The notes beneath the pieces are model-generated. The model made no database searches. It saw only the letters and a list, made by a program, of their open reading frames with translations, and had not been told where the DNA came from. The position numbers and the translations under genes are program-made. A stretch of 64,000 bases of DNA from contig NC_057715.1 of assembly GCF_004010195.1 (NCBI RefSeq), positions 12,784,409 to 12,848,408 of the forward strand, in the 5' to 3' direction. The DNA comes from Chiloscyllium plagiosum. Lineage: Eukaryota. Positions 9,262 through 63,790 of this stretch are shown here, in pieces (position 1 is the first letter of the stretch; each line of letters starts with the position of its first letter).

Positions 9262-10058
9262 AAAGTACTGAATAAGTGTTTCCCCAGCAATGGTTATACG
9301 ATATTGAGCTGTAACTTCTCTTTATTTCAATGCTTTTTTTAAACAACTGTGTAATATTTGCAATCCACCAATCCTTTAAGCACCTTCCATATTAAGGAAG
9401 GATTGAAAGATTTAGACCTGCAAATTTTCCATCCTTACATCTCTCAAAAGCCTAGCATGCATTCCACCAGGACCAGGTGTTTTTCTCCTTTGAGGACTGC
9501 CAGTGTTTAAGTAACCTCTCTTTATCTATTTTTGTCCAATCCCTCATCAAACCTGCCTCCCCTCCTTTACTGTCAATTTGGCAGCATCAGATTTTAAACC
9601 ACAGCCCAGGGACTAGTCAATAGGTTGTCTGTATCTGTAAGCATCCTGGTCTGATGCATGATCTAAACATTTTCTTTAAAAGTCATCTGCAGCACAGACA
9701 ACTGACCGTGAATGCCTTGCAATCAATAAAATGCATCACTTAGGTAGATCATGCATTGCTCTCAACATGCACAAGACCAACAAGACATTTCTGTGAAGGT
9801 GCCTCCTCTTCAGATGGGTGCAGCCCTGCGGAACAAAGAATGAGATCATTTGTTTATTCTGTTTGAATTATTCACAGAAACACCATAATGACCTTTGGGG
9901 AAATCCAAAGTTGCAACTATAATTGACATGTCTTGAATGTAATAGACTCAGTTTAGTTGCTGTTCACTCCTCTACCCTTTAATATCCCTCCTAGTCTAAT
10001 CCTACTCTTTAGCTATAATCCACAGATCTGCAGGCACTAACAAAACTTGAGATAAGGT

Positions 10059-10276
10059 CATATTTTGGAGATACCGGTGTTGGACTGGGGTGGACAAAGT
10101 TAAAAATCACACAACACCATGTTATAGTCCAACAGGTTTAACTGGAAGCACTAGTTTTTGGAGCTCCTCCTTTTGTGTCCTCCATAACCACCTGATGAAG
10201 GATCGTCGCTCCAAAAGCTAGTGCTTCCGATTAAACCTGTTGGACTGTAATCTGGTGTTGTGTGATTTTTTTAACT
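10059..10276. mobile_element. Palindromic PLE-derived element with hammerhead-like core
   Basis: Inverted arms aaagttaaaaatcacacaacacca.. / ..tggtgttgtgtgatttttttaacttt; cacCTGATGAaggatcgtcgctccAAAAGCTAgtg at 10189-10223; flanking 12-bp direct repeat ttgagataaggt. Confidence 0.8.
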
Positions 10277-11149
10277 TTGAGATAAGGTGTTAACCCTGCA
10301 ATTGGCAGGTTGACAGTTTGTAGTACATACCTAAAAGGGGCATGCAAGTGATAATGTGTAGAGTGCGGGTTTACGTACTCTGCAATCATCCGCTTACCTC
10401 AAGAAATGATTTATTCACCACTACATTCTGTTCATTTAATCTGCCAACACAAAATCCTATCAGGAGTGGCTGACTTTCTGTCCCAAATGCTCTTCTGCAC
10501 GTTCTTTTCTAATTGCATACCAAAGGATCACCTGAGGAACAGGAACCATTAGGATGAGAAGGAGATGGCATAGATACTTCTTACTGTAAACGTCACAGAT
10601 ACCAACTATTCCTTCAAATTGCACCATACTCCATCTCATGTTCACTTTTACAATTAGGCTGAGAGTATCAAAAGGAAGAAAGTGTAGACTAAAATTATTT
10701 CATCCTTTCATGGACTTGTAGAGAAGTAAATAATTGACTGTGTAACACATTTTTAAATGAAAAAGGCTGAAATATTGCACCTCATTTCAGGTAATAGATT
10801 AGTTTTGTGGCATAACATTCAACCTATGCTCATATTTACTGCGAAACTCCAACCATAACCTACAGCAAGCCAATTTTTGTTCACTTTTCCACAAAAATCT
10901 GCTTCAAAACTCAATAAATCTTGTTCTCACCATATAACATGATTCACAATACTCCTTCAATGATTTTCCCAGTGGTGTCATTGGTATAAACCACAACCAC
11001 ATCTGAGTTAGTTGGAGAGGGTGTCATGTCAATCATTCAAATACCGACAATAAATGTTCAAAAATATCGGATTAAAAGCAAAGTTAGTTAAAATACCTTT
11101 CTCTGATCAGATGGAATACTAAATGAACAAATATTGTCTTGACTGAGTC

Positions 11150-11680: not shown

Positions 11681-11759
11681 CATCATTTATCACATCATTC
11701 TGACTGAAATGCAAAATGTGATAGATTTTAATTGTTAACTTGTACTTGTGGCTATTTCT

Positions 11760-12700
11760 ACCAAGCGATCTGTTGTCATGGCGTGCCATGCTCACCTGTC
11801 TTGATTCATTGTCTCATATTCACAGTAACTCAACTGTAGCTGCTCTGTGATGTCAGTCATTCCACTACCCTGAGCTCGACTCCTCTCTCTGCAGTCTTTC
11901 ACTTTACTCTGAGATCTCCGTAGACTTTCAACTCTGATCGAATGGCCAACATACTGAAGTTTTTTTTTGATGTTGCTTTTTAAGAGTTTATCTTCCTTCA
12001 ATTTCAAGTATCTCTGAATTGTCTATCATCTGTATGTGATTATTAACATGTATCTTAGCATCATCCATATTTAAAAAGTCTATTTTTTCTTTCTAAGATC
12101 TTTATTGTCCTGCTCTCTGAGGGCTGAAGGAAAGTGGATCGAATATAATGAGTAATGAGCTTTTTCCAGGTTACAGGTTTTCTTGAGTTTTCTTGTCATT
12201 GACACATTCTTCATCTTCACAAAACTTCCAGATATCTCTACTTGTGACTTCCATACTGCATCTGCCATTTGGTATTCTTATTTTTCTTAAGTAAACACAC
12301 ATCTACTTATGAGAACTGCAGATGATGGAGATCAGAGTCGAGAGTGTGTTGCTGGAAAAGCACAGCAGGTCAGGCAGCATCCAAGGAGCAGGAGAATTGA
12401 TGTTTCGGGCATAAGCCCTTCATCAGGAATGATAATGAGCTTTTTCCAGGTTACAGATTTTCTTGAGTTTTCTTCATTCCTGATGAAGGGATTATGCCTG
12501 AAGAGTCTGTTCTCCTGCTCCTCGGATGCTTCCTGACCTGCTGTGCTTTTCCAGCCACCACATATCGACACACATCCTTTTATTCCAATTTAACACCAGC
12601 CATGTCAATCTTCACTAGTTTCCTCTCAAGTATTTGTTCCATTACCATTGTTTGTAAGTTCAGTGTTCATTTCTTGATGAACCATATTTTAAACTCCTAG
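11760..12700 (-). mobile_element. Ancient RTE-like LINE remnant, interrupted by a PLE palindrome
   Basis: Minus ORF 11792-12007 LLKSNIKKKLQYVGHSIR...MTDITEQLQLSY...QDR resembles the RTE-type ORF C-terminus (KRKLQYFGH...W.D.I...AQDR). Confidence 0.65.
12311..12567. mobile_element. Palindromic PLE-derived element; loop contains a copy of flanking DNA
   Basis: Left arm ..gctggaaaagcacagcaggtcaggcagcatcc..tttcgggcataagcccttcatcaggaatga is the reverse complement of right arm tcattcctgatgaaggg..cctgctgtgcttttccagc. Confidence 0.9.
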
Positions 12701-13679
12701 ACAGTATCAGTAAGAGCGACCACCACACAATCTTTGTGGAGACAAAGTCCCGACTTTGCATGAGAAACCTTACTTTATGTTGCGTGGCACTATCACTGTT
12801 CTGAGTGGTAGAGCATCTATCAACTCAAGACTGGGCATCAATAAGGCATTGTGGACCGTCAGCAACAGTAGAATTGTAGTGCAACACATTCTGCTGCCTT
12901 ATGGCCTGGCATATCCTCACCCTATCACTACCATCATCTTGGAGGTCAATCCTGGTGAAACAAAGAATTCAGGAAAAGTACCAGGAGTGAACAGGACTAC
13001 CTATGTGTCAAATAGCATACACAGCAAATGATAGATGGAACTAAGCAATTCCACAAGCAACATTCTAAGCTCTGTAGTCCTGCCACATCCAGTCATGAAT
13101 GACGATGGACAATTAAACAACTAATTGAGGAGGAGGCTCCACAAACATCCCCATCTGCTATGATAGGGTCCCCACAAGAACCCAAAATATCAACTGAAGC
13201 ATTTACAACAGTTTTCAGCCAGAAATGCTGAGTGTATGATTCATTTCAGCTTCTTTCAGACATCCCCAGCATCACAGATACCAGTCTTCAGCCAATTTAA
13301 TTCACTCCTTGTGATATTAAGAAATGAAGGCACTGGATTGTTGCAAAGACAGGGATCTGCAAAGATATGGACCTGACAACATTCCGGCAGTAATACTGAA
13401 GACTTTTGCTCCAGAACTTGCTGCTCCTCTAGCCAAGCTGTTCCAGTACAGTTACAACACTGGCATAAATCTGACAATGTGGAAACTTGTCCAGACGTGT
13501 CCTGTAACGAAAAGACAGGGCAAATCCAATCCAGCCAATTACTGTCTCAAAACTAGTCTCAATCATCAGTAAAGTAATAGAAAGAGTCATCAACAGCGCC
13601 ATCAAACAACTCTTGTTTAGCAATAACCTGCTCACTGCCATTTAGTTTGGGTTCTACCCATAGTCCATGTCCAAATGCA

Positions 13680-14347: not shown

Positions 14348-14752
14348 GGTGAGGACTGCAAATGCAGGAAATCAGAGTCTAGATTAGAGTGGTGCTGGAA
14401 AAGCACAGCAGATCAGGTAGCATCCGAGGAGCAGGGAAATCGACGTTTTGGGCAAAATTCCTTCATCAGAAATGAAGGCAGGAAGCCTCCAGGGTGGAGA
14501 GATAAATGGAAGGGGGGTGGGGCTGGGGAGAAGGTAGCAAAGAGTACAATAGGTGGATGGGGGTGGGGATGAAGGTAACAGGTCAGAGAGGAGAATGGAG
14601 CAGATAGATGGGAAGGAAGCTTGGCAGGTAGGACAGGTCATGAGGATGGTGCTGAGTTGGAAGTTTGGAAGTGGGGTAAGATAGGAAAGGGAAATGAGGA
14701 AACTGGTGAAGTCCACATTGATGTCCTGGGGTTGAAGTCTTCCGAGGCAGAA
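14348..14752 (-). mobile_element. Penelope-like element 3' end: GIY-YIG C-terminus, pyrimidine-rich UTR and decayed hammerhead
   Basis: Minus strand at about 14752-14695 reads FCLGRLQPQDINVDFTSFLIS, matching the PLE endonuclease C-terminus (..LGTL.P.G.N.); continues into the same terminal arm as the palindromic elements. Confidence 0.8.
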
Positions 14753-15423
14753 GTAAAGCAGTCTGCTTGATTGGCACCACGTTCACAAATATTCACACTC
14801 TCCACCATTGATGCTCAGTAGCAGTAACAATATCCACTGCAGAAATTCACAAAGGCTCCTTAGACAGCACCTTCCAAATCCATGACGACTTCCGTCTGGA
14901 GGGACAAGTGCAGAAGGTGCTTTGAAACACCATCACCTGCAAGTTCCCCTCCAAGCTGCTCACCATCCTGACCCCCCTCACTGTCGCTGATTAAGATCCT
15001 GGAATTCCATCCCTAAGCGCATTGTGGGCCTACCTACACCAAATGTAGCAATTGAAGGAGGCAGCTCAATGTAGCAATTGAAGGAGGCAGCTCAACACTA
15101 CCTTCTCACGTAGCGACAGGCTGGCCCAGCCAGTGATACCAATTTCGCATGAATAATGTTTTTTTTTTAAATCTATGCCAGTAGACAATAGAGGAAGTAG
15201 TAGAACACAGGTCTTTGTGGGAGATAGGCAAAGTAGCAGCGACAGACTGATTGTGAGGTACTGGAGGGGAGGTGATGGGCAGTTACGCAGTTGGAGCAGA
15301 GGGGTCATTGATGTTCTTCACACAGTGCTGTGCATTCCTCCATATGGCTGTATCCTGTGTGGCAAACCCGAACCAGCCCGACATGTTCTGGTATCGTGGC
15401 CTTCACCTATCAGCCCCATCCTG

Positions 15424-24861: not shown

Positions 24862-25061
24862 CAACTGTTATTAGAGATTGATGTTATTTGACATCAGCTT
24901 TATATTTGCTGCCTTTTTGTAGTTATTCATAGAATGTTGGCAACATAGTCAAGGCCAGAGCTTATTGTACACTCTTACTAGCCCTTGAAAGGGTGCGGCT
25001 GAGCTGTCATCCTGGACTGTGACAGTCCAGGCAGTAAATGTTTCGGTGCTCTAAGATAGGG

Positions 25062-25712
25062 TGTCACAAAGCTACTCCCTTTTTTTCTAAAAGCTGTTCC
25101 TTGGCTCAAGGAGACTTTGCCCTTGATTTCTTTCGGAGGGGCAATAAACCAGGCAGGACTCCAATTAGTCTGGTTTGGTACAGAGATGAAAAGGATTTTG
25201 AGAGGCCTTTTGTTTATATGCAAACAGATGAGACTTCAGGCCAAAGTGGTCATGCTTTAGAAGTGACCTGTATAAAGAGACGGGAGTGGTCAGCTGTCTA
25301 GCTGAGCTGAGCTGAGTAGCTTTTAGTTCAGTCTTGAACTGGGAACTTTAACTGGGAGCTATGTGGAAACTCTCTTTCTTTTCTGCCTTTCAACTTCAAC
25401 CTGTAAGCATGTGTTCCATTTATACTGGGTGTTAAAAGGAATTTGCTTATTGGGACTGTTGTATGTATTCGGAACAGCATAATTAAATCAAGCTGGTTAG
25501 GTTGAGTTCTGTATGCGTTCTTTATTCTGTTCTTTGTGTTTCATTGTGTAATTTTGTGAATAAATGTTTTTGTCTGTTTCAAAATCTAGTAGTTAACCTA
25601 GCTATTTTACTCTGGGTAATTTTCCCTGTACACTTACCGAAACAAATTGCAAACTTAGGTCTAGGGCTGTCTGCTTAAGAATGTTTTGAGTGGTCTGGCC
25701 TGGTCCATAACA
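25062..25712 (+). repeat. 5' LTR (651 bp)
   Basis: tgtcacaaagcta...ccataaca; aataaa at about 25559; direct repeat of 30768-31413. Confidence 0.96.
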
Positions 25713-27879: not shown

Positions 27880-29075
27880 GAGAAATGGGCAGAAATTCAT
27901 CAAATGATTTTGCCAGTACAGTAAAGAAAGGAGGTGCTGCGAGTGGTGCATGTGCTACCACTTAGAGGTCATTTAGGGCTGAGGAAAACACAAGCTAAAA
28001 TACAAAGACATTTTTACTGGCTTGGACCACACAAGGATGTAATTGAATTTTGCCAGACGTGTCATACATGTCAGCTAATCGGAAAACCACAGGCAGTAAT
28101 AAAACATGCACCTTTAATATCTATTCCAGCATTTGAGGAACCTTTCACGAGAATCTTGATTGATTGTGTAGGTCCCCTACCTCAAACAAAAAGTGGGAAT
28201 AAGCATTTATTAACAATAATGGATGTGTCGACTAGATTTCCAGAGGCAATCCCATTACGCAACATTACAGCTGAAAGGGTTGTAGAAGAAATACTTAATT
28301 TTTTTACGAGATACAGACTTCCAGTAGAGATTCAGTCAGATCAAGGATCAAACTTCATATCCAAACTATTGAAGGAAGTTATAGACAACTTGGGAATAAA
28401 GCAATTGAAATCTTCTATGTACCATTCGGAATCGCAGGGAGTGCTAAAGAGATGGCATCAAACACTGAAGACCATGTTGAAGGCTTATGGTCAGGATTAT
28501 CCAGAAGCAATTGAAATCTTCTATGTATCATTCGGAATCGCAGGGAGTGCTAAAGAGATGGCATCAAACACTGAAGACCATGTTGAGGGCTTATGGTCAG
28601 GATTATCCAGATGATTGGGATAAGGGAATTCCGTTTGTACTTTATGCGATCAGAGATGCACCGAATGAATTGACCAAATTCAGTCTGTTTGAATTAATTT
28701 TTGGGCATGAAGTAAGGGAACCATTAAAATTAATTAAGGAGAAATTAATAAGTCAGAATTCAGAGACCACCCATTTGGACCCCAAATTTTAGGGAACAAT
28801 TAAATAGAGCTGGAGAGTCGGCTAGACAGCATTTAAACATATCACAGCATACAATGAAATAAGAAGCAAATCAGAAATCACAAATTCACAATTTTGCAAT
28901 TGGAGATAAGGTATTGGTGTTATTTCCAGTCACAGGTGAGCCTTTAAAAGCAAGGTTTAGTGGACCGTATCAAATTGAGAGGAAATTGAGTCAGGTGAAC
29001 AACTTGATAAGGACTCCAGACAGTAAGAAATCTCACAGAGTGTGTCATGTGACTATGCTCAAAAGGTATTTTGAC
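27880..29075 (+). pseudogene. Integrase (HHCC, DDE, GPY/F) located upstream of RT
   Basis: H..GHLG..KT..FYW..CHTCQ; ILIDCVGPLP; IQSDQGSNF; ESQGVLKRWH (E to K); RFSGPYQI..HVTMLKRY. Confidence 0.95.
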
Positions 29076-30590: not shown

Positions 30591-30767
30591 GAGATACAGA
30601 GGCATTTGGCGGTGGTGTGTCATGGACTGAATTTGCATATGGTTGTACATGTTTGCATGTTTAGAGTTAGTATAGTGAATATGTTTGTTCAGACTACGAA
30701 CCGGGGTTTTGAAGGGTTAAAAATGAAGCCATCTTTTGGTATTGATGTTTTTGTTTAATGGAAGAGG

Positions 30768-31413
30768 TGTCACAAAGCTAGTCCCTTTTTTTAAAAAAGC
30801 TGTTCCTTGGCTCAAAGAGGCTTTGTCCTAGATCTTTTCAGAGGGGCAATAAACCGTGCCAGACTCCAATCAGTCTCATTTGGTACAGAGATGAAAAGGA
30901 TTTTGAGAGGCCTTTTGTTTAGGCCAAACAGATGAGACTTCAGGCCAAAATGGTCATGCTTTAAAAGTGACCTGTAGAAAGAGAGGGGAGTGGTTAACTC
31001 TCTAGCTAGCTGAGCTGAGCTGTTTTTAGTTCAGTGTTGAACTAGGAAGTTCAACAGGAGCTGTGTGGAACCTCTCTCTCTTTTCTGCCTTCAACTTCAA
31101 CCTGTAAGCATGTGTTCCATTTATACTGGTTTCTAAAGGGAGTTTGCTTATTGGGACTGTTGTGTATATTCTGAACAGCATAATTAAGTCTAGCTGGGTA
31201 GGTTGAGTTCAGTAGGGGTTCTTTATTCTGTTCTTGGTGTTTCATTGTGTAATTTTGTGAATAAATCTTTTGTCTATTTTAAAATCAAGTAGTCAACCTA
31301 GCTATCCTACTCCAAATAATTTTCACTGTACACTTACCGAAACAAATTGCAAAAGTTAGGTCTAGGGTTGCCTGCTTAAGAATGTTTTGAGTGGTCTGAC
31401 CTACTCCATAACA
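30768..31413 (+). repeat. 3' LTR (646 bp) preceded by PPT ggaagagg (30760-30767)
   Basis: tgtcacaaagcta...ccataaca, roughly 85-90% similar to the 5' LTR by eye. Confidence 0.96.
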
Positions 31414-32239
31414 AGGGAGTTCCAGAATTTTGAGTAAACTATGTGTGGTCAGGATGGCATGTGTCTTGGTGTTGTTATGGAATGTTTGAAAGGTTGCAAT
31501 GAAGAGAAAAGTACGGCCAAAAAATTAGAAAGGATGTTGATGATGGATATATGGAGATGGTGATTCTATGGAAGCTCAGGAAATGTGATTTACCTGGTTG
31601 GAGATGGCTGTTACCTGATGATTATTCAGTGAGGATCTTACTTGGAGTTTATCCAGGTTTTATCGCAAATGGTCACAAGTTGCTTCATTGCCAAAAGAGC
31701 TGTACCTGGAACACAGTTGTGGATGATTACGAACAAGTCAAACTGCTTATTCAAAAATAAAACTTTGTAGATGCTTGAAATCTGAAATCAAAACAGGAAA
31801 CACTGAACAATCTCAACAAGTCAGGCAGCAATTGTGTGAAAAGAAACAGTTAACAATTTAGGCTGATGTTATTTCATGAGAATTGGAAAAATTTCAAGTT
31901 TTAAGCAATTGGAGAGGCCGGGAGAGTGGGAAGGACAGAACAAGAGAGAAGGGTTCTGATAGCAGAAGGCAAGCAGAACATATTAAAGAAGGCAAAAAGG
32001 TCAAAAGTGATGGTGGACCAAAGCAAAGGGAGGGGAGATGTTAGTGAAACAAGAAACAAAATATTTGGTTAAAGGAGGACAAAATGCCAACAGAGATGAG
32101 AGTTTTGAGTTAATTATGGAAAGCCAACACATATTTGAAAAAGACAGATCATGGTTGACTAATTTGTGTGAATTCTTTGATAAAGGAACAGAGGAGCTTG
32201 TTTAGGGAATGGATTTTAAGAAAATATTTAATAAAATGT

Positions 32240-32447
32240 TAAAAATAATACTGTACCAGGTTATGGTCCAACAGGTTTATTTGAAAGTCTAGCTTTCAGA
32301 GCACTGCTCCTTCATCAGGTGGTTGTCTGATAAAGGACCAACTGTGCTCCAAAAGCTAGTGCTTCCAAATAAACCTGCGAGACTATAACCTGGTGTGGTG
32401 TGATTTTTAACTTTGTACACCCCAGTCCAACGCCAGCATCTCCAAAT
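32240..32447. mobile_element. Palindromic PLE-derived element (same family as 10059-10276) with a near-intact hammerhead core on the minus strand
   Basis: Minus 32322-32289: ccacCTGATGAaGGAGCagtGCTCTGAAAgcTAg; second decayed core on the plus strand at about 32327-32362. Confidence 0.85.
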
Positions 32448-32579
32448 TTTGATAAAATTCCATGTTAATGGCTGGTTAACAAAATTTCAGGAAAGTGAGT
32501 GTCTATTCAGATTTTTAAATGACAAGAAATAGCAAGTTATGGTGTCAATTTATGCACTTCGATAGGAAGATTAGAGATG

Positions 32580-34099: not shown

Positions 34100-36850
34100 T
34101 TGAATATAACTGACTAACTAGTGGGAAAAATATAGAAGAACAAATTTATAAGGAAATTACCGAGGTGTGTAAAAATGTAGATTAGATATAAATTAGTAAC
34201 TTTAATGTTTCTAATAAAAACATTGAAAGTAGTTGTGTAAAGGACACAGAGAATGCCTACAGGGTGTTCACAGAAATTTCTGCAGCCATATGTTTGCAGT
34301 CCGAAAAGAAAAGAAACATTGTTAGAAACAAAAACAGAAATTGTTGGAAACTTTCAGCAGGTCTGCCAGCATCTGTGGACAGAAATCAGAGTCAACATTT
34401 CAGGTCAAGTGACTCTTCCTCAGAACTCCTCGGGAGCACTGTTAGACTTGGTTCTTAGGATCAAAGTGGGTCAAATGGATCAAGTATCATAGGGGAAATT
34501 TAAGTAGTGACTACTTTTACATTATAACATTTAGTTTGGCCATGGGAAAGGATGAAGAACAATGCAAGGTAAGAATAGTTAACTTGAGAAAAACCAACTT
34601 AAATGTGGTAAGAATGGACCTTGGCCAAAAAAACTGGAATCAAATATTGACAAACAAAGCAATAATTGAACAATGGGTTGCCTTTAACAGGAGATAGTTT
34701 GAGCAAAGTAAAGGTATATTCCCCATGATGGGGAAAGGTGGGTCAAACATATCAAGAGGTCCATTAGTAGTGATTAAAGATTAAGAAAAAAAGTATGCTT
34801 CAAACAGGTGACAGGTGGATAATACAACTAAGAGCCAGACTGAATATGGAAGGTTCAGTGGCATGGTGAGAAAACAAATAAGAGAAATAAAGTACAAAAA
34901 AAGAATGACAGCTAACGTAAAAGGGAGCCCAATGTCCCCTGTAGGCATATAAATAATTTTTAAAAGGGTCAAAAGAAGAGCAGGGCCAATTAGGGAGCAA
35001 ACAGGGATTTACACCTGGGGTCACAGGCTATGGTTGAAACATTAAATAAATACTTTGAATTTATCTTTACCCAGAAAGAATATGTTGTAAAGGTTGTGGC
35101 AAAAATAGAGATAATGCAGACTCTTGAAAGGCTTAAGAGTGAAAAGAAGGAGCAATAAAGTGGGCTGTCTTTATTTAAAGTTGATAAGACACCAGAACAA
35201 GATGACCATGAGACCATGTGACATGTGAGCAGGATTAGGCCATTTGACCCATTGAGTCTGTTCCACCATTTTGATCATGGCTGATATGTTTCGCATCCCC
35301 ATCCTCCTGCCTATCCCCATAACCCTTGATCCCCTTACCAATCAAGAACCTATCTATTCCTGACTTAATATTTTCAATGACTTGTCTCCACACCCCTCTA
35401 CAGCAATGAATTCCACAGATTCACCACCTTCTGCCTGAAAATATTCCTCTTTGTCTCATTTCTAAAATCTCATCCCTTCAACCTGAGGCTGTGCCCTCGA
35501 GTCCTAGTCTCTCCTATTAGTGGAAGCATCCTTTCCATGTCCACTTTATCCAGGCCCCTTAGTATTTCATAAGTTTCAATCAGATCCCCTCTTACTCCAT
35601 CTAAACTGCATCAAGTACAGACCTGGAGTCCTTAACTACTCTTATCCATCTGAACTCCATTGAGGACAGACCCAGATTCTTCAACTGCTCTTCATATAAA
35701 AAGACCTTCATCCTTGGGATAATTCTTGTAAACCTCCTCTGGACTCCCTCCAACACCAGTACATCCTTCTGTGCACATGGAGCCTAAAACATGGTCATAA
35801 TGTTCCAAATGTGGCCCGACCAGAGCCTTATACAGCCTTGACAGCACATTTCTGTTCTTGAATTCTCACCCTCTTTAAATGAATGATAGCATTGCATTTG
35901 CCTTTCCAACTGCCAACTGAACCTGCATGTTAACCTTAGAATCCTGAGATTCCAAGTCCCTTTGGGCTTCAGATTTCTGAAGCCTTTTCCCATTTAGAAA
36001 GTAGTCTATGCCTCAACCAAAATGCATTGTCTCACACTTTCCCACATTGTATTCCATCTGCCACTTCTTTGCCTATTCTCCTAGCCTGCCAAGTGATTCT
36101 GCAGCCTCCCTACTTCCTCAACACTACCCGTCCCTCCACCTGCATTTGTGAGCTGCAAACTTAGCAACAATGCCCTTAGTTCGTTCATCCTGATCTTTAA
36201 TATATATCACGAGTAGTTGTGCTCACAACACAGACTCCTGCAGGATTCCACTAGTCACCAGCTGCCATCCTGAAAATACCCTCTTCATCCCTCCTCCTTG
36301 CCTCCTGCCAGTCAGCCAATCCTCTATCCATGTCATTGCCCCTAACACTATGGCTCATCTTTAGCAGCGTCCTGTGTTCTGGAAATCCAAATAGATCACA
36401 TCCACTGACTCTCCTTTGTCTAACTTGCGCATTACCTCTTCAAACATATTAGCCATGATAAAGTGAGGACTGCAGATGCTGGAGGTCAGATCAGAGTCTG
36501 GTTCAGGAAAAGGACAGCAGGCCAAGCAGTATCCAAGGAGCAGGAGAATCAATGTTTCGGGCATAAGTTCTTCATAAGGAATAGGGTTTGTGGCCCATAA
36601 GCCTCATTCCTGATTAAAGGCTTATGCCCAAAACTTTAATTCTCTTGCTCTTTGGATACTGCCTGACCTGCTGTGCTTTTCTAGCACCACACTCTCTTGC
36701 AGATCAGTCAGGCATGACCTCCATTGGAAGGCACCCAAGGGTACCGAAGGTAGTGAGATTGAGGAGGCCCTGACCATAGTTTTCCACCTTCCTTAGACTG
36801 CATCTGGTGCTGGAGAATTGAAGACATTATACCCTGGTTCCAAAAATGGT
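34100..36850. mobile_element. Nested CR1 cluster: old plus-strand CR1 (about 34100-35207, resuming 36728-36850) split by a minus-strand CR1 (about 35208-36727), each containing a PLE insert (about 34325-34428 and 36462-36695)
   Basis: DKTPEQD at about 35183-35205 continues as HPRV..EIEEAL at about 36733-36775; minus CR1 tail accatgagaccatg at 35206; PLE arms as elsewhere. Confidence 0.8.
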
Positions 36851-41920: not shown

Positions 41921-42256
41921 TTAAATGGGACGGGAGGCTGGGGAGATGGTAGCAAAGAGTACAATAGGTGAATGGGGGTGGGGATGGAGGTGATAGGTCA
42001 GAGAGAAGGGGGTGGAGTGGAAAGGTGGGAAGGGAGATTGGCAGGTAGGACAGGTCATGAGGNNNNNCGTCTCCCCAGCCCCCACCCCATTTATCTTTCC
42101 ACCCTGGAGGCTTCTTGCCTCTATTCCTGATGAACGGCTTTTGCCTGAAACGTCGATTTTCCTACTTCTCGGATGCTGCCTAACCTGCTGTGCTCTTCTA
42201 GCACCACTCTGATCTAAACTCTGGTTTCCAACATCTGCAGTCCTCACTTTTGCCTG
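41921..42256. mobile_element. Inverted PLE 3' fragments spanning a 5-N gap, with hammerhead core
   Basis: Purine-rich arm matches 14500-14645; plus strand attcCTGATGAacGGCttttGCCtGAAAcGTCgatt at 42123-42158. Confidence 0.85.
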
Positions 42257-46389: not shown

Positions 46390-48455
46390 ATAGAATATAA
46401 GACATTACAGCACAGTGCAGGCCCTTTGGTCCTTGATGTTGCGCTGACCTGTGAAACCAATCTGAAGACCATCCAACCTACACTATTCCATTATCATCTA
46501 TATGTTTATCCATAGAACATAGAACATAGAACATAGAAGAATACAGCGCAGTACAGGCCCTTCGGCCCTCAATGTTGCGCCAATCCAAGCCCACCTAACC
46601 TACACTAGCCCACTATCCTCCATATGCCTATCCAATGCCCGCTTAAATGCCCATAATGAGGGAGAGTCCACCACTGCTACTGGCAGGGCAGTCCATGAAC
46701 TCACGACTCGCTGAGTAAAGAACATACCCGTACCATCTGTCCTATACCTACCCCCCCCCCCTTAATTTAAAGCTATGCCCACTTGTAATAGCTGANNNGA
46801 ACTCAATTCCTCTACCAATAAAAGCCAGTACGCCATATGCCTTCTTCACCGCACTATTTACCTGGGTGGCAACTTTCAAAGACTTGTGTACATGGACACC
46901 AAGATCCCTCTGCTCATCCACACGACCAAGTATATATCCAATGACCATTTAAATGCCCTTAAAGGTGGCAAGTCTACTACTGTTGCAGGAAGGGAGTTTC
47001 ACATCCTTACTACTCTCTGAGTAAAGAAATTACCTCTGATATCTGTCCTATATCTATCACCCCTCAATTTAAAGCTATGTCCCCTCATGCTAGCCATCAA
47101 CATCTGAGGGAAAAGGCTCCCACTGTCTACCCTAACTAACCCTCTGATCATCTTGTATGTCTCCATTAAGTCACCTCTCAAGCTTCTTCTCTCTAACAAA
47201 AACAGCCTCAAGTCCCTCAGCCTTTCCTCATAAGACCTTCCCTCCATAGCAGGCAACATCCTGGTAAATCTCCACTGTACCCTCTCCAATGCTTCTGCAT
47301 CCTTCCTATAATGCAGCGACCAGAACTGTACACAATACTCCAAGTGCAGCCACACTAGATTTTTGTACAGCTGCAACATGACCTCATGGCTCTGAAACTA
47401 AATCCCTCGACCAATAAAAGCGAACACACCACACACCTTTTTAATAACCCTATCAACTTGGGAGGCAACTTTCAGGGATCCATGCACATGGACACCGAAA
47501 TCCTGCTGCTTATCCAAACTAGAAGAATCTTGCCATTAGCCCAGTACTCTGTGTTCCTGTTGCTCCTTCCAAAGTGAATCACCTCACACTTTTCCACATT
47601 TAACTCCATTTGCCACCTCTCAGCCCAGCTCTGCAGCTTATTTATGTTCCTCTGTAACCTGCAACATTCTTCTGCAATGTCCACACCTCCACTGACCCTA
47701 GTGTCATTCCAAATTTACTAACTCATCTTTCTACACACTCATCCAGGCTATTTATAAAAATGACAGACAGCAGTGGCCCCAAAACAGATCCTTGTGGTAC
47801 ACCACTAGTAACTGAACTTCAGGATGGACATTTCCCATCAACCACCACCCTCTGTCTTTTTACAGCTAGCCAATTTCTGATCCAAACTGCTAAATCACTC
47901 TCACTCCCATGCCTCTGTATTTTGTTCAATAGCCTGCTATGGGGAACCTTATCAAATGTTTTACTGAAATCCATACACATCACATCAACCACTTTACCCT
48001 CCTGCACCTGTTTGGTCACCTTCTCAAATAACTCAATAAGGTTTGTGAGGCACAACCTACCCTTCACAAAATCGTGTTGACTGTCCCTAATCAAATTATT
48101 CCCTTTTAGATAATTATAATTCCTATCTGTTATAATCCTGTCCAACACTTTACCCACAACTGAAGTAAGACTCACTGGTCTATAATTACTAGAGTTATCT
48201 CTACTCCCCTTTTTGAACAAGGGGACAACATTTACTGTTCTCCAGTCTTCTGGCACTATTCCTGTAGACAATGACAACATAAAGATCAAAGCCAAAGGCT
48301 CTGCAATCTCCTCCCTAGCTTCCCAGAGAATCCTAGGATAAATCCCATCCATCCCAGGGGATTTACCTATTTTCACACTTTCCAGAATTGCTAACAACTC
48401 TTCCTTATGAACCTCAATCCCATCTAGCCTGATAGTCTGTATCTCAGTATTCTCG
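46390..48455 (-). mobile_element. HER1/CR1 LINE 3' 2 kb (RT largely readable) with a second CR1 3' end nested at 46513-46934
   Basis: KSPGMDGIYPRILWEAREEIAEPL..NYRPVSLTSVVGK..QHDFVKGRLCLTNL..MDFSKTFDKVPH; LEYCVQFWS; nested copy has a (tagaaca)n tail and tatcca on both sides. Confidence 0.95.
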
Positions 48456-49299
48456 CAGCTAGAGTGTGAATACTGAGTTACAGTTTATTAGACTAGACAG
48501 CATTATCACGGTGGTGACAGCTAGAGAAGTCACAGTTGCTACAATAGCTTTGACTTAACTCATAAATCTAACTTGGACTAATTCTTTCAAAAATAAGAGT
48601 GATGCTAAAAGAAGAAAGCTGGATAAAAATAAAGTCACATCCAGGAAGCAGCATGCAAACAAGGGTGTGAAAAGTATACTCCAAACCCAAAAAGGGAACC
48701 CAAGAGTCCTGTGAGTTCCCGCTGCAACAAGGAGGACATTTCCAGTTGAAATGTTAGAGATTAAGGTATGGTTCACATACACCGGGTCAGGACTGAGAGA
48801 GGACTCCCGGCAGGGGACACAGCAGATTCCCACAGGCAGCCTTGCTACAAAATCTTGGGAGCATTTGCCTTGTGTATGACGCATCCAGGCAAATCCCCTG
48901 CAAGCTGCAGGAGTTTTGTGGTCTTGGGAACGCTATTCCTGCATCCCTCCCTGAAATCAAACAAAGTCTATTGCTTTATGCAGGGACCACTCAATTCTCA
49001 ATGTCAACCTAAAAGTAACTTATGAGTTACTACCTTAGCTACATGGTGTTAAAACTAAGAACAAACATGGGACAACTGGTTAGTTCCTCCCAGGAACAGT
49101 TCTTACATTCTGATGATGTTAGTTAACTCTTTCCGAAATTATACATCATTACACAACATTAACTTGTCATATCATTTGTCTCTTTGTCTCTTTGTCTCCT
49201 ACTCACAGCTTGTATTTTCACTTGGCTATTACACATTAGCAAACTGAGATACGTTACATTTTGTCTGTTTGTCTACATTCATTATTGTAGATTGTAAAT

Positions 49300-54112: not shown

Positions 54113-54503
54113 ACTCTCACACCTCTCACATGGGCTAGAAAAAGTCTGTCCATTTTTAAGTATATCATCTTCATAATTATCCCTGAATACCCTCACAGAT
54201 CGTGAACTACTAATTTTATGTTTGTGGAATGTCACACTTCACTCTAATGATCAATGATTCCACATAGAAGATGTTTTTGTTTAAATTAGTTTGTTTACCT
54301 TTGTTTTAGATTCTATCTTAATCCAACCACAATACAGTAATTCATTTTTCTATCTGAAATTTTCAATTAAAAATAAAGGATATTAGGTACTTTTCAATCT
54401 CCTGGTTTGTTGTGCATGAGTTCTTCAATGCTGTATCTGTAAGCCGAGTTCATTGCTGCTGCATATTAGGGCATGCCTTTGACCTGATGCCAGTCTGAAT
54501 ATA

Positions 54504-54673
54504 GGTGAAAGTGGGTACTGCAGATGCTGGAGATCAGAGTCAAGATTAGAGTGGTGCTGGAAAAACACAGCAGGTCAGGCAGCATCCGAGGAGCAGGAAA
54601 ATCGACGTTTCGGGTAAAAGCCCTTCATCAGGAATGCCTGACCTGCTGTGCTTTTCCAGCACCACTCTAATCT
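54504..54673. mobile_element. Asymmetric palindromic PLE-derived element with well-preserved hammerhead core (minus strand)
   Basis: Minus 54635-54600 attcCTGATGAaGGGcttttaCCCGAAAcGTCgatt; 18-bp direct repeat tgatgccag(t/c)ctgaatat at 54485-54502 and 54674-54691. Confidence 0.9.
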
Positions 54674-55964
54674 TGATGCCAGCCTGAATATGTTATCCAG
54701 AAAGAAGGAATATTCACAGAGAGCACTGTGTCTTTATGGGTTAATGAGCAGCTTGCTTGAAGGTCAGGCCTTGCTTCATCACTGACTGCAAAATGTAAGT
54801 CTCTATAGCCAGAATGTGGGTATTTACTAATTAAGTATTTGTTGAAATATAAAGAAACTTGTGACATTAAGAATTAATATCAATGTAAAATAGCTTTCTC
54901 ATTCTACTTGAAATTAGGACTGAGTTGCAAGATCAGAGAACTGTTACAGGGGGTGACTTAAAATCTGCAACTAAGCTAGTTATATTTAAGGATAATGATC
55001 TTTAAAATACTTTATGCAATTAAGTAGTACCAGTTAGATGAGAGGCGTAAGACCCCATTTATGCTTAGTTTTCCATTGTACACGAAGAAGATTTTTGACA
55101 AGGGAGCAGGTGAAAGCTGAGTCGAACTCCCTACAGAGACAGTGTGTGTGTTCTGCTTCAGAGTGAGACCCCAGGTCAACCTGCCTCACTTAGCATTGCC
55201 ACCTCACCAGATAAAAGCTGCTGATTAGCAATTGTAATGAGCAGGTGTGAGGGCCCTAACTTGGCTTCTGTAGTTAGAGGCATAGAGAGTGGCTTCTCTA
55301 TATTGTGTTTGCCTTCCGTGTGTGCCAACTCAAGCCTCAGGTTTTGAAATATGTGTAAGAAGCATTTGGAAATATGCACAAATATACATCTGCGTACATG
55401 TGTGTTCGCGTGTCTGTGTACATGTATGTATAAAGCAATGCTAATTAACACAGCTTTCATTCCTCCTACCAACCTTTATCTGAACTATTGTTAGCTTATT
55501 TTTAAAACCCTTCCTCCCGCACAAGGCTATGATAGGATCAGCTTGTCAAACACGTTCTACCTCATTGGCTTTCCATACAGATTTCCATGGATTTTCCTTT
55601 TGTACCATGAAAACATAACAGCAACAATTAGCTGCTCACTAATCTCTTCCCATCTTCAGCAGCTGAAAAGGTTTTAGAAGGAGGGAGAAACAAAGAGTAA
55701 GCTGGGCTCTCGGTTGCTATGTGACAGTGCCATTTCTTATACACACAATGCTGACAATTCTCCATGCTCTCACCTCTCACCCAAAACAGAAGCATTTCTT
55801 TTGAGCACAACAGATCACCACTTACTACTCATCCAGTTCAGTAAGAAACACCAAGAGAAAAACAATATTTAAAAGGTGCTTAGCTTGGTCTGAGTCGAAC
55901 TTGTCAGCAACCCAATATATTAATACAGTTTCCTTCATTTCATGTAATGGTCATTATTTCTGAC

Positions 55965-62738: not shown

Positions 62739-63790
62739 ATAGAACATTATAGCGCAGTATAGACCCTTCGGCCCTCAATGTTGCGCCGACCTGTCATACC
62801 AATCTGAAGCCCATCTAACCTACACTAGTCCATGTTCGTCCATATGCTTGTCCAATAACGACTTAAATGTACTTAAAGTTGGCGAATCTTCTACCATTGC
62901 AGGCAAAGTATTCCATACCCTTACTGCTCTCTGAATAAAGAAACTACCTCTGACATCTGCCCTATATCTATCACCCCTCAGTTTAAAGCTATGCCCTCTC
63001 ATGCTTGCCGTCACCATACTTGGAAAAAGGCTCTCCCTGTCCACCCTATCTAACCCTCTGATTATCTTATATGTCTCTATTAAGTCACCTCTCAACCTTC
63101 TTCTCTCCAACGAAAACAGCCTCAAGTCCCTCAGCCTTTCCTCGTAAGACCTTCCCTCCATACCAGGCAACATCCTAGTAAATCTCCTCTGCACTCTTTC
63201 CAAAGCTTCCACGTCCTTCTTATAATNNNNNNNNNNNNNNNNNNNNNNNNNNNNNNNNNNNNNNNNNNNNNNNNNNNNNNNNNNNNNNNNNNNNNNNNNN
63301 NNNNNNNNNNNNNNNNNNNNNNNNNNNNNNNNNNNNNNNNNNNNNNNNNNNNNNNNNNNNNNNNNNNNNNNNNNNNNNNNNNNNNNNNNNNNNNNNNNNN
63401 NNNNNNNNNNNNNNNNNNNNNNNNNNNNNNNNNNNNNNNNNNNNNNNNNNNNNNNNNNNNNNNNNNNNNNNNNNNNNNNNNNNNNNNNNNNNNNNNNNNN
63501 NNNNNNNNNNNNNNNNNNNNNNNNNNNNNNNNNNNNNNNNNNNNNNNNNNNNNNNNNNNNNNNNNNNNNNNNNNNNNNNNNNNNNNNNNNNNNNNNCTTC
63601 TTAACAACCCTGTCAACCTGGGTCACAACTTTCAAGGATCTGTGTACCTAGACACCAAGATCTGTCTGCTCATCTACACTACCAAGAATCTTACCATTAG
63701 CCCAGTACTTTGCATTCCGGTTACTCCGACCAAAGTGAATCACCTCACACTTGTCTGCATTAAACTCCATTTGCCACCTCTCAGCCCGGC
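62739..63790 (-). mobile_element. Young HER1/CR1 3' fragment spanning a 370-N gap (63227-63596)
   Basis: YKKDVEALERVQRRFTRMLPGMEGRSYEERL..RGDLIETYKIIRGLD..; RWQMEFNADKCEVIHFG. Confidence 0.93.

What the first reader, a model, noticed from the sequence alone, without database searches (positions are those of the whole stretch)
12153..12567. Palindromic PLE element has captured 42 bp of neighbouring host DNA as its hairpin loop
Seen: the spacer between the inverted arms (12433-12474, taatgagctttttccaggttacagattttcttgagttttctt) copies 12153-12194, exactly 280 bp upstream, with one mismatch. The source is flanked by aatga(g) and (g)tcatt, the same words that end the element arms (ggaatga / tcattcc), giving microhomology at both junctions. 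Other palindromic copies (36.5 kb, 54.6 kb) have only element-derived spacers. Inference: microhomology-guided template switching onto target DNA during PLE integration, or Pol-theta-type templated repair of a cleaved hairpin. The result is local sequence bracketed by two opposed hammerheads, a possible route to transducing host DNA.
Basis: partly seen in the sequence, partly recalled or inferred. Interest (0 to 1): 0.75.

Follow-up and report, generated by a model that had tools for sequence, protein, structure and literature searches.

The report
Flank DNA patch inside Penelope palindrome
A small, dead, mirror-image insertion of a Penelope-type jumping gene has its two halves joined by 42 bases copied from the DNA next door; it looks like an ordinary repair patch, not a device for moving host DNA around.

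Summary
The repeat is real: 12433-12474 matches 12153-12194 at 41 of 42 bases, far beyond chance. It is present in another study's run of the same species and in a related species, at single-copy depth. The claimed microhomology is only approximate: it needs a 1-base and a 2-base skip, and the left word is half of a 7-base tandem repeat that the relative has once. All 5 palindromes in the window have the tail, and their short arms end at a fixed family position. This is the known Penelope inverted structure. Best reading: two cDNAs grew inward from a staggered cut, both ended in AATGA, and a templated patch from a flank segment bracketed by AATGA...TCATT bridged them. A later repair of the palindrome centre is not excluded. 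Transduction is unsupported: the hammerhead cores are damaged and lie on opposite strands, and no further loop copies were seen. The scan noted a similar 236-base capture elsewhere in this genome (unchecked here). A new example of known processes.

The parts
12146..12159 (+). Tandem TAATGAG x2.
   Evidence: window sequence; 7 bases left out at 12146 in X10, not in X15, X5 or X8 (table 4)
12153..12194 (+). Source segment in unique T-rich flank, ending 101 bases before the left target-site copy
   Evidence: T fraction 0.50 within flanks of 0.40-0.41, window 0.30; single-copy depth at 12173
12196..12200 (+). TCATT, complementary to the AATGA-3' end of either cDNA; inferred priming or re-annealing site
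   Evidence: such a word lies this close to a segment end at 0.7% of 63,532 positions
12295..12310 (+). Target-site duplication, left copy
   Evidence: 13 of 16 identical to 12568-12583; P 7e-6 at fixed position; 2.2% of 1484 random window pairs reach its sliding-search score
12311..12432 (-). Long arm: 3' end of a hammerhead-bearing Penelope-like repeat, with a 26-nt tail (about 12311-12336) that the other arm lacks
12399..12426 (-). Minimal-hammerhead-like motif of the long arm; core words intact, but the ACGT palindrome has decayed to ACAT
   Evidence: read from alignment A1; no Rfam hammerhead match
12433..12474 (+). Loop: same-orientation copy of 12153-12194. A at 12457 in the window, G (as in the source) in organism C.
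   Evidence: (table 3, place 12457)
12474..12569 (+). Short arm without tail; 84 of 95 aligned bases identical to the long arm, plus 2 gaps; its last 2 bases are shared with the target-site copy
12480..12507 (+). Hammerhead-like motif of the short arm, core damaged (GAAA reads GAAG; changes in stem II)
   Evidence: alignment A1; stem II does not form in the fold
12568..12583 (+). Target-site duplication, right copy

Best explanation
The palindrome (12311-12569) is one Penelope-like insertion made at a 16-base staggered cut. Both 3' ends of the cut primed reverse transcription, one at the outer start site (long arm with tail) and one at the inner start site (short arm), so two cDNAs grew toward each other. 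Both stopped at the same point just 5' of the hammerhead core and ended in ...GGAATGA-3', so they could not pair with each other. One end annealed to a matching 5-base word in the left flank, 100-150 bases away. It was extended over 42 bases until it reached the complementary word, let go, and annealed to the other cDNA end. The simplest path is the bottom-strand cDNA pairing with TCATT (12196-12200) on the resected left end, as in polymerase-theta templated insertion; a template jump by the element's own reverse transcriptase would leave the same trace. The copy is an old dead fossil and has not spread. SHOWN: the repeat, target-site duplication, tail asymmetry, imperfect end homologies, single-copy state and presence in a relative. 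INFERRED: priming from both ends, the order of steps, the enzyme, and that the patch was made during integration.
For: Target-site duplication 13 of 16; comparable duplications at 4 of 5 palindromes in the window. In 5 of 5 palindromes of two families the short arm ends at a fixed family position (21-26 nt past one anchor in three, 36-40 nt past another in two) and the long arm runs 26-37 nt further. This matches the two start sites and the extension of both DNA strands shown in vitro for the anole Penelope element (PMC11167929). Both arms end at the same base. Places 12430-12432 are among the best-supported loose-end and joint positions for family copies in all four runs (tables 5, 7), so the inner junction looks like a native cDNA end. 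The source is bracketed by AATGA/GAATA and TCATT; each word occurs at under 1% of positions. Flank-templated insertions primed by minimal pairing are the described polymerase-theta signature (PMC12426944). Loop composition fits the source flank.
Against: The loop looks somewhat too young. It differs from its source at 1 of 42 bases, and probably at 0 of 42 in the ancestor of organisms A and C. The arms differ at 11 of 95 and the target-site copies at 3 of 16. The chance of 0 early mismatches is 0.44 to 0.002 over my range of age estimates, and 0.15 to 0.04 for the middle ones. Both end homologies need skipped bases. 42 nt is longer than typical polymerase-theta insertions (generally under 25 bp). 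The motif tolerances were chosen after seeing the junctions. No empty site was found, and no endonuclease or reverse-transcriptase frame was confirmed for the family.
Confidence: 0.55

Rival explanations
1. Later repair. The palindrome integrated first with another centre. Later the cruciform or hairpin centre broke, both ends were trimmed back to AATGA, and end joining patched them with flank DNA.
For: Loop-source divergence is lower than arm-arm or target-site divergence. The arms form a very stable hairpin. The 36.5-kb copy shows that arms can extend further inward.
Against: The junction lies where many family copies end (tables 5, 7). The age difference is not significant for the lower age estimates (P 0.44 and 0.15). 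The patch is already present in organism C, about 3.4% diverged (36 differences in 1047 contig letters, table 8).
Confidence: 0.22
2. Single cDNA with snap-back. One cDNA jumped from the RNA's end onto the flank, copied 42 bases, folded back through TCATT/AATGA onto itself, copied itself to make the short arm, and was joined to the target by 2 shared bases.
For: Explains without further assumptions why both arms end at the same base. Snap-back onto the cDNA, or less often onto nearby target DNA, is seen for R2 protein (PMC11371274). Short arms share 2-3 bases with the target copy in three palindromes.
Against: It predicts scattered outer ends for the short arm, but 5 of 5 end at a fixed family position. 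The top-strand cDNA would have to invade duplex flank. The purified anole element extends both strands.
Confidence: 0.17
3. Reverse direction or homogenisation. The flank segment was copied from the loop, or the two were kept alike by conversion.
For: It would explain the low divergence between loop and source.
Against: The loop would then have no known origin. Its T content matches the flank around the source. A search for a reading frame that could give the direction found nothing.
Confidence: 0.04
4. A working route for transducing host DNA: the two hammerheads release or mobilise the captured loop.
For: Penelope terminal repeats have mobilised host DNA in a rotifer (PMC3846280). Ribozyme cleavage was not needed for insertion in vitro, so a minus-strand transcript with loop and tailed end could in principle be copied.
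Against: The motifs lie on opposite strands and are damaged and buried in a hairpin. Depth at 12457 equals single-copy flank depth: 14.1 versus 13.4-18 in X15, 34 versus 31.9-34.7 in X10.
Confidence: 0.02

Closest known systems
Inverted pLTR insertions of endonuclease-bearing Penelope-like elements with a one-sided 30-40 bp tail and target-site duplication (PMC3846280, parts 1-3 of 5 read; PMC8557442, passages; PMC11167929, main text read)
   Same: Head-to-head terminal fragments, tail on one arm, short target duplication, hammerhead-like motif near the inner ends.
   Different: Here only about 120 + 96 nt of the element end are present, and the centre is a copy of DNA from the insertion's own flank. 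The rotifer cases capture unrelated or kilobase-long host DNA; the parts read do not trace it to the local flank.
Polymerase-theta templated insertions (PMC12426944, passages)
   Same: Short insert copied from DNA flanking a break, primed by minimal pairing, then re-annealed.
   Different: 42 nt is longer than usual (generally under 25 bp); the ends being joined are retroelement cDNA; the enzyme cannot be identified from sequence.
L1 twin priming (PMC10760644, passages), R2 snap-back junctions (PMC11371274, passages), and template-jump extra bases at LINE 5' junctions (PMC2666801, passages; stated there as unpublished data)
   Same: Inverted retroelement sequence and extra templated bases at the 5' junction, sometimes from nearby target DNA.
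   Different: L1 twin priming gives non-overlapping inverted parts (recalled); here both arms are the same sequence and end at two fixed family sites.
Minimal hammerheads of metazoan Penelope-like elements (PMC4209133, parts 1-2 of 4 read)
   Same: Core words, extra base before stem II, short palindrome in place of helix III; opposite-strand pairs close together are reported there for Schistosoma.
   Different: Both copies at this locus are damaged; activity was not tested.

Membership tests
Penelope-like element insertion | Inverted, 5'-truncated terminal copy next to the main copy | tested here: met
   arms 12311-12432 (-) and 12474-12569 (+)
Penelope-like element insertion | 30-40 bp tail on one side only | tested here: met
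   26 nt here, 34-37 nt in the other four palindromes; slightly short at this locus
Penelope-like element insertion | Short target-site duplication | tested here: met
   13 of 16; no empty site found to prove it
Penelope-like element insertion | Minimal hammerhead motif in the terminal repeat | tested here: met
   CTGATGA-A-stem II-GAAA-CGTC in the consensus of alignment A1, compared by eye with PMC4209133; Rfam gives no hammerhead match
Penelope-like element insertion | Parent element encodes a telomerase-like RT plus a GIY-YIG endonuclease | tested here: inconclusive
Polymerase-theta templated insertion | Insert copied from sequence near the junction | tested here: met
   41 of 42, source 101-142 bases from the target site
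Polymerase-theta templated insertion | Short homology at both ends of the copied segment | tested here: inconclusive
   5-base matches with 1- and 2-base skips; the left one depends on the ancestral state of a 7-base tandem repeat
Polymerase-theta templated insertion | Dependence on POLQ | not testable with these tools
   needs genetics or biochemistry
Retrozyme or hammerhead-released transducing unit | Two intact ribozymes on the same strand flanking the cargo | tested here: not met
   opposite strands, damaged cores
Retrozyme or hammerhead-released transducing unit | Cargo dispersed in further copies | tested here: not met
   single-copy depth at 12457 in X15 and X10; contigs can miss rare copies

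The most novel reading that the evidence does not exclude
Penelope palindromes are regularly made by two cDNAs primed from both strands of one cut. When their identical inner ends cannot pair, a measurable share are bridged by local DNA chosen because it is bracketed by the family's end word and its complement. The centres of the many palindromic copies in this genome would then be a natural record of the unresolved last step of Penelope integration, readable from sequence alone.
Probability: 0.3. Interest if true: 0.55.

Novelty: new member of a known kind. Interest (0 to 1): 0.3.

Why it matters
How Penelope elements form their inverted structures is still called undefined (PMC8557442), and the steps after priming are not yet validated (PMC11167929). 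A centre whose template and end homologies can be traced says something about that missing step. One old locus cannot settle it. Over 100,000 contigs per run were laid on this stretch, with hundreds of palindrome-type joints, so a genome-wide test is practical. As a way of moving host DNA, this locus matters little.

Tried and rejected
Genome-wide test of loops: not possible, since no genome is held. Family motifs found 0 matches in metagenome contigs and 0 in viral contigs.

Empty site: none. Contigs of organisms A, B and C run from the flank into the arms on both sides (table 8). Runs X5 and X8 of organism B have depth 0 at 12457; that is missing cover, not evidence of absence. Only 4 of the 24 listed runs were laid, all contigs. 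The tool left out 42 difference rows and, for each run, some counts. Small indels at the two loop junctions in the relatives would be hidden under the depth of other family copies.

Assembly artefact: rejected (X15 depth 14.1 at 12457 with no other letter; an X10 contig covers 12457 at 46 letters from its end). Loop as family consensus: rejected (table 7).

Rfam: 0 matches at gathering score in the window. At E up to 10, 9 sub-threshold miRNA or snoRNA matches, none a hammerhead; I read them as hairpin-driven or chance.

A pre-formed stem-loop at the source as the reason for capture: not supported (-1.1 kcal/mol; 186 of 200 shuffles fold as well).

Direction of copying from a decayed reading frame in the flank: 1 weak sub-threshold Pfam match in 6 frames, 0 homologues.

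Endonuclease identity of the 14.4-kb copy: 0 families in 8 frames, 0 hits, Atlas scores at most 0.76.

Dating: inconclusive. The age values were my hand estimates, because the automatic count for the short arm was inflated by a misaligned stretch.

Literature: 10 searches. In the listings and the parts read I found no paper describing local flank DNA as the centre of a Penelope palindrome. The library lacks most subscription papers, and no supplements were read (those of PMC3846280 and PMC11167929 may hold such cases).

Full report
Observation. The 42 bases between the arms (12433-12474) repeat 12153-12194 at 41 of 42 positions, 280 bases apart. Nothing else in the window exceeds 24 of 42, and 1000 shuffles of the 2-kb flank reach at most 27. 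Of 5 palindromic repeat copies in the window, only this one has a centre that matches its own flank.

Is it real? X15 (organism A, a different study from the best holder) has contigs over 11750-12338 with 1 difference and 12533-13050 with none, and depth 14.1 at loop position 12457 with no other letter. X10 (organism C, about 3.4% diverged: 36 differences in 1047 letters of three contigs) has a contig that covers 12457 at 46 letters from its end, which takes it across both loop junctions. It reads G there, the letter of the source. In C the source instead differs at 12173. So loop and source were probably identical in the common ancestor; 42 table rows were not shown, so this is not certain. 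Organism B enters the arms from both flanks but has no cover at 12457. No contig spans the whole palindrome, and no empty site was seen. Loop depth equals flank depth in X15 and X10, while the arms draw over 100,000 contigs per run. The loop is therefore neither family consensus nor spread; family copies continue past 12432 with GGCTTGTGGGC (table 7).

Junctions. The microhomology is imperfect. On the left the source reads AATGAG|TAATG and the loop GGAATGA|TAATG. On the right the source reads TTCTT|GTCATT and the loop TTCT|TCATT. One and two bases are skipped. The left word is half of a tandem TAATGAG that organism C has once (table 4). I cannot tell which state is ancestral; one unit needs fewer events and still gives GAATA against GAATGA. 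With tolerances chosen after the fact, the right word occurs at 0.7% and the left at 0.5% of 63,532 positions, and both together at 4, three of which I count by hand as this source and loop. The homology is thus unlikely to be chance, but it is looser than reported.

The insertion runs from 12311 to 12569 between two copies of a 16-base target (13 of 16; P 7e-6 at fixed position; 2.2% in a sliding null). Four of 5 palindromes have such duplications; the 36.5-kb copy has none above chance. In 5 of 5, from two families, one arm is 26-37 nt longer at its 3' end, and the short arm stops at a fixed family position. This is the inverted copy with a one-sided tail described for Penelope-like elements (PMC3846280, parts 1-3 of 5 read; PMC8557442, passages). 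For the anole element, purified protein cuts and extends both DNA strands and starts at two RNA sites that bound the tail (PMC11167929, main text read). The family motif fits the minimal hammerhead of PMC4209133 (parts 1-2 of 4 read) by eye; Rfam has no match. I could not confirm the parent's endonuclease, so the Penelope label rests on architecture and motif.

Mechanism. Best reading (0.55): both ends of a staggered cut primed cDNA, and the two cDNAs met with identical AATGA-3' ends at a point where many family copies end (tables 5, 7). Such ends cannot pair. One annealed to the flank word, copied 42 bases up to the complementary word, and re-annealed to its partner. This is the path described for polymerase-theta templated insertions (PMC12426944, passages), though these are usually under 25 bases. 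A jump by the element's own enzyme cannot be told apart. Against it, the loop is closer to its source than the arms (11 mismatches in 95) or the target copies (3 in 16) are to each other. The chance of no early mismatch is 0.44 to 0.002 over my age range, so a later repair of the palindrome centre keeps 0.22. A single cDNA that jumped and snapped back, as R2 cDNA can (PMC11371274, passages), keeps 0.17; the fixed short-arm ends argue against it.

Transduction. Not supported. The two motifs lie on opposite strands. The short arm's core reads GAAG for GAAA, and the long arm has lost its ACGT palindrome. A transcript folds into one hairpin of -158.4 kcal/mol, z -16.65. The expected cut site, after 12507 or 12399, would separate the loop from the element's 3' end (inference). 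No extra loop copies were seen.

Known and new. Each ingredient is known: Penelope inverted insertions with tail and target duplication, host DNA caught between Penelope repeats in a rotifer, twin priming (PMC10760644, passages), extra templated bases at LINE junctions (PMC2666801, passages), and local rearrangements at L1 insertion sites (bioRxiv 10.1101/2024.12.14.628481, passages). PMC6155905 (passages) gave background only. Ten searches did not show a paper on local flank DNA as the centre of a Penelope palindrome; the library is incomplete and no supplements were read. The scan itself noted a 236-base capture of the same kind elsewhere in this genome (e1-7789279), which I could not check. 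Verdict: a real, well-supported fossil of a known kind of repair at a known kind of insertion; interest 0.3, more if a genome-wide survey shows it to be regular.

Noticed in passing
window 10047-10288: Palindrome of a second hammerhead-bearing family with a 12 of 12 target duplication and a 34-nt tail; its roughly 15-nt centre matches neither its flank above chance nor the other copy of the family.
   Followed up: partly
window 32227-32458: Second-family palindrome in the opposite orientation; target duplication 10 of 11, tail on the right arm, no host spacer.
   Followed up: partly
window 54485-54691: Palindrome with a 17 of 18 target duplication, arms 98% complementary over 42 nt, short arm sharing 3 bases with the target.
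   Followed up: partly
window 36458-36696: Palindrome whose arms run further inward and meet with a 1-nt loop; no target duplication above chance.
   Followed up: partly
window 12503-12509: Four changes within 7 bases of the short arm, in the hammerhead core; possibly a local template switch or error-prone synthesis.
   Followed up: no
window 14350-14780 (-): Longer family copy whose frame ends in a stretch resembling the recalled end of Penelope GIY-YIG domains; no database support.
   Followed up: yes
window 48416-48504: Inverted repeat with 37-nt arms (78%) and a 15-nt loop, not matching other repeats in the window.
   Followed up: no
window 12231-12272: Organism C has a cluster of small indels next to the source (-2, -2, -1, +2), besides the 7-base difference at 12146 (table 4).
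   Followed up: no
public runs, laid on window 12350-12560: Other family copies show joints with 4-39 extra letters between the two sides; 12 were listed and 788 not shown. They are the raw material for a genome-wide survey (table 5c).
   Followed up: no
window 28399-28611; 25060-25712 and 30766-31413: A 107-bp near-tandem duplication (98%) and a 650-bp dispersed duplication (88%).
   Followed up: no
window 29789 (+) and 21302 (-): Broken frames with YIDD reverse-transcriptase-like motifs.
   Followed up: no
window 42063-42067, 46796-46798, 63227-63596: Runs of N; the first lies inside a family copy whose two sides point in opposite directions.
   Followed up: no
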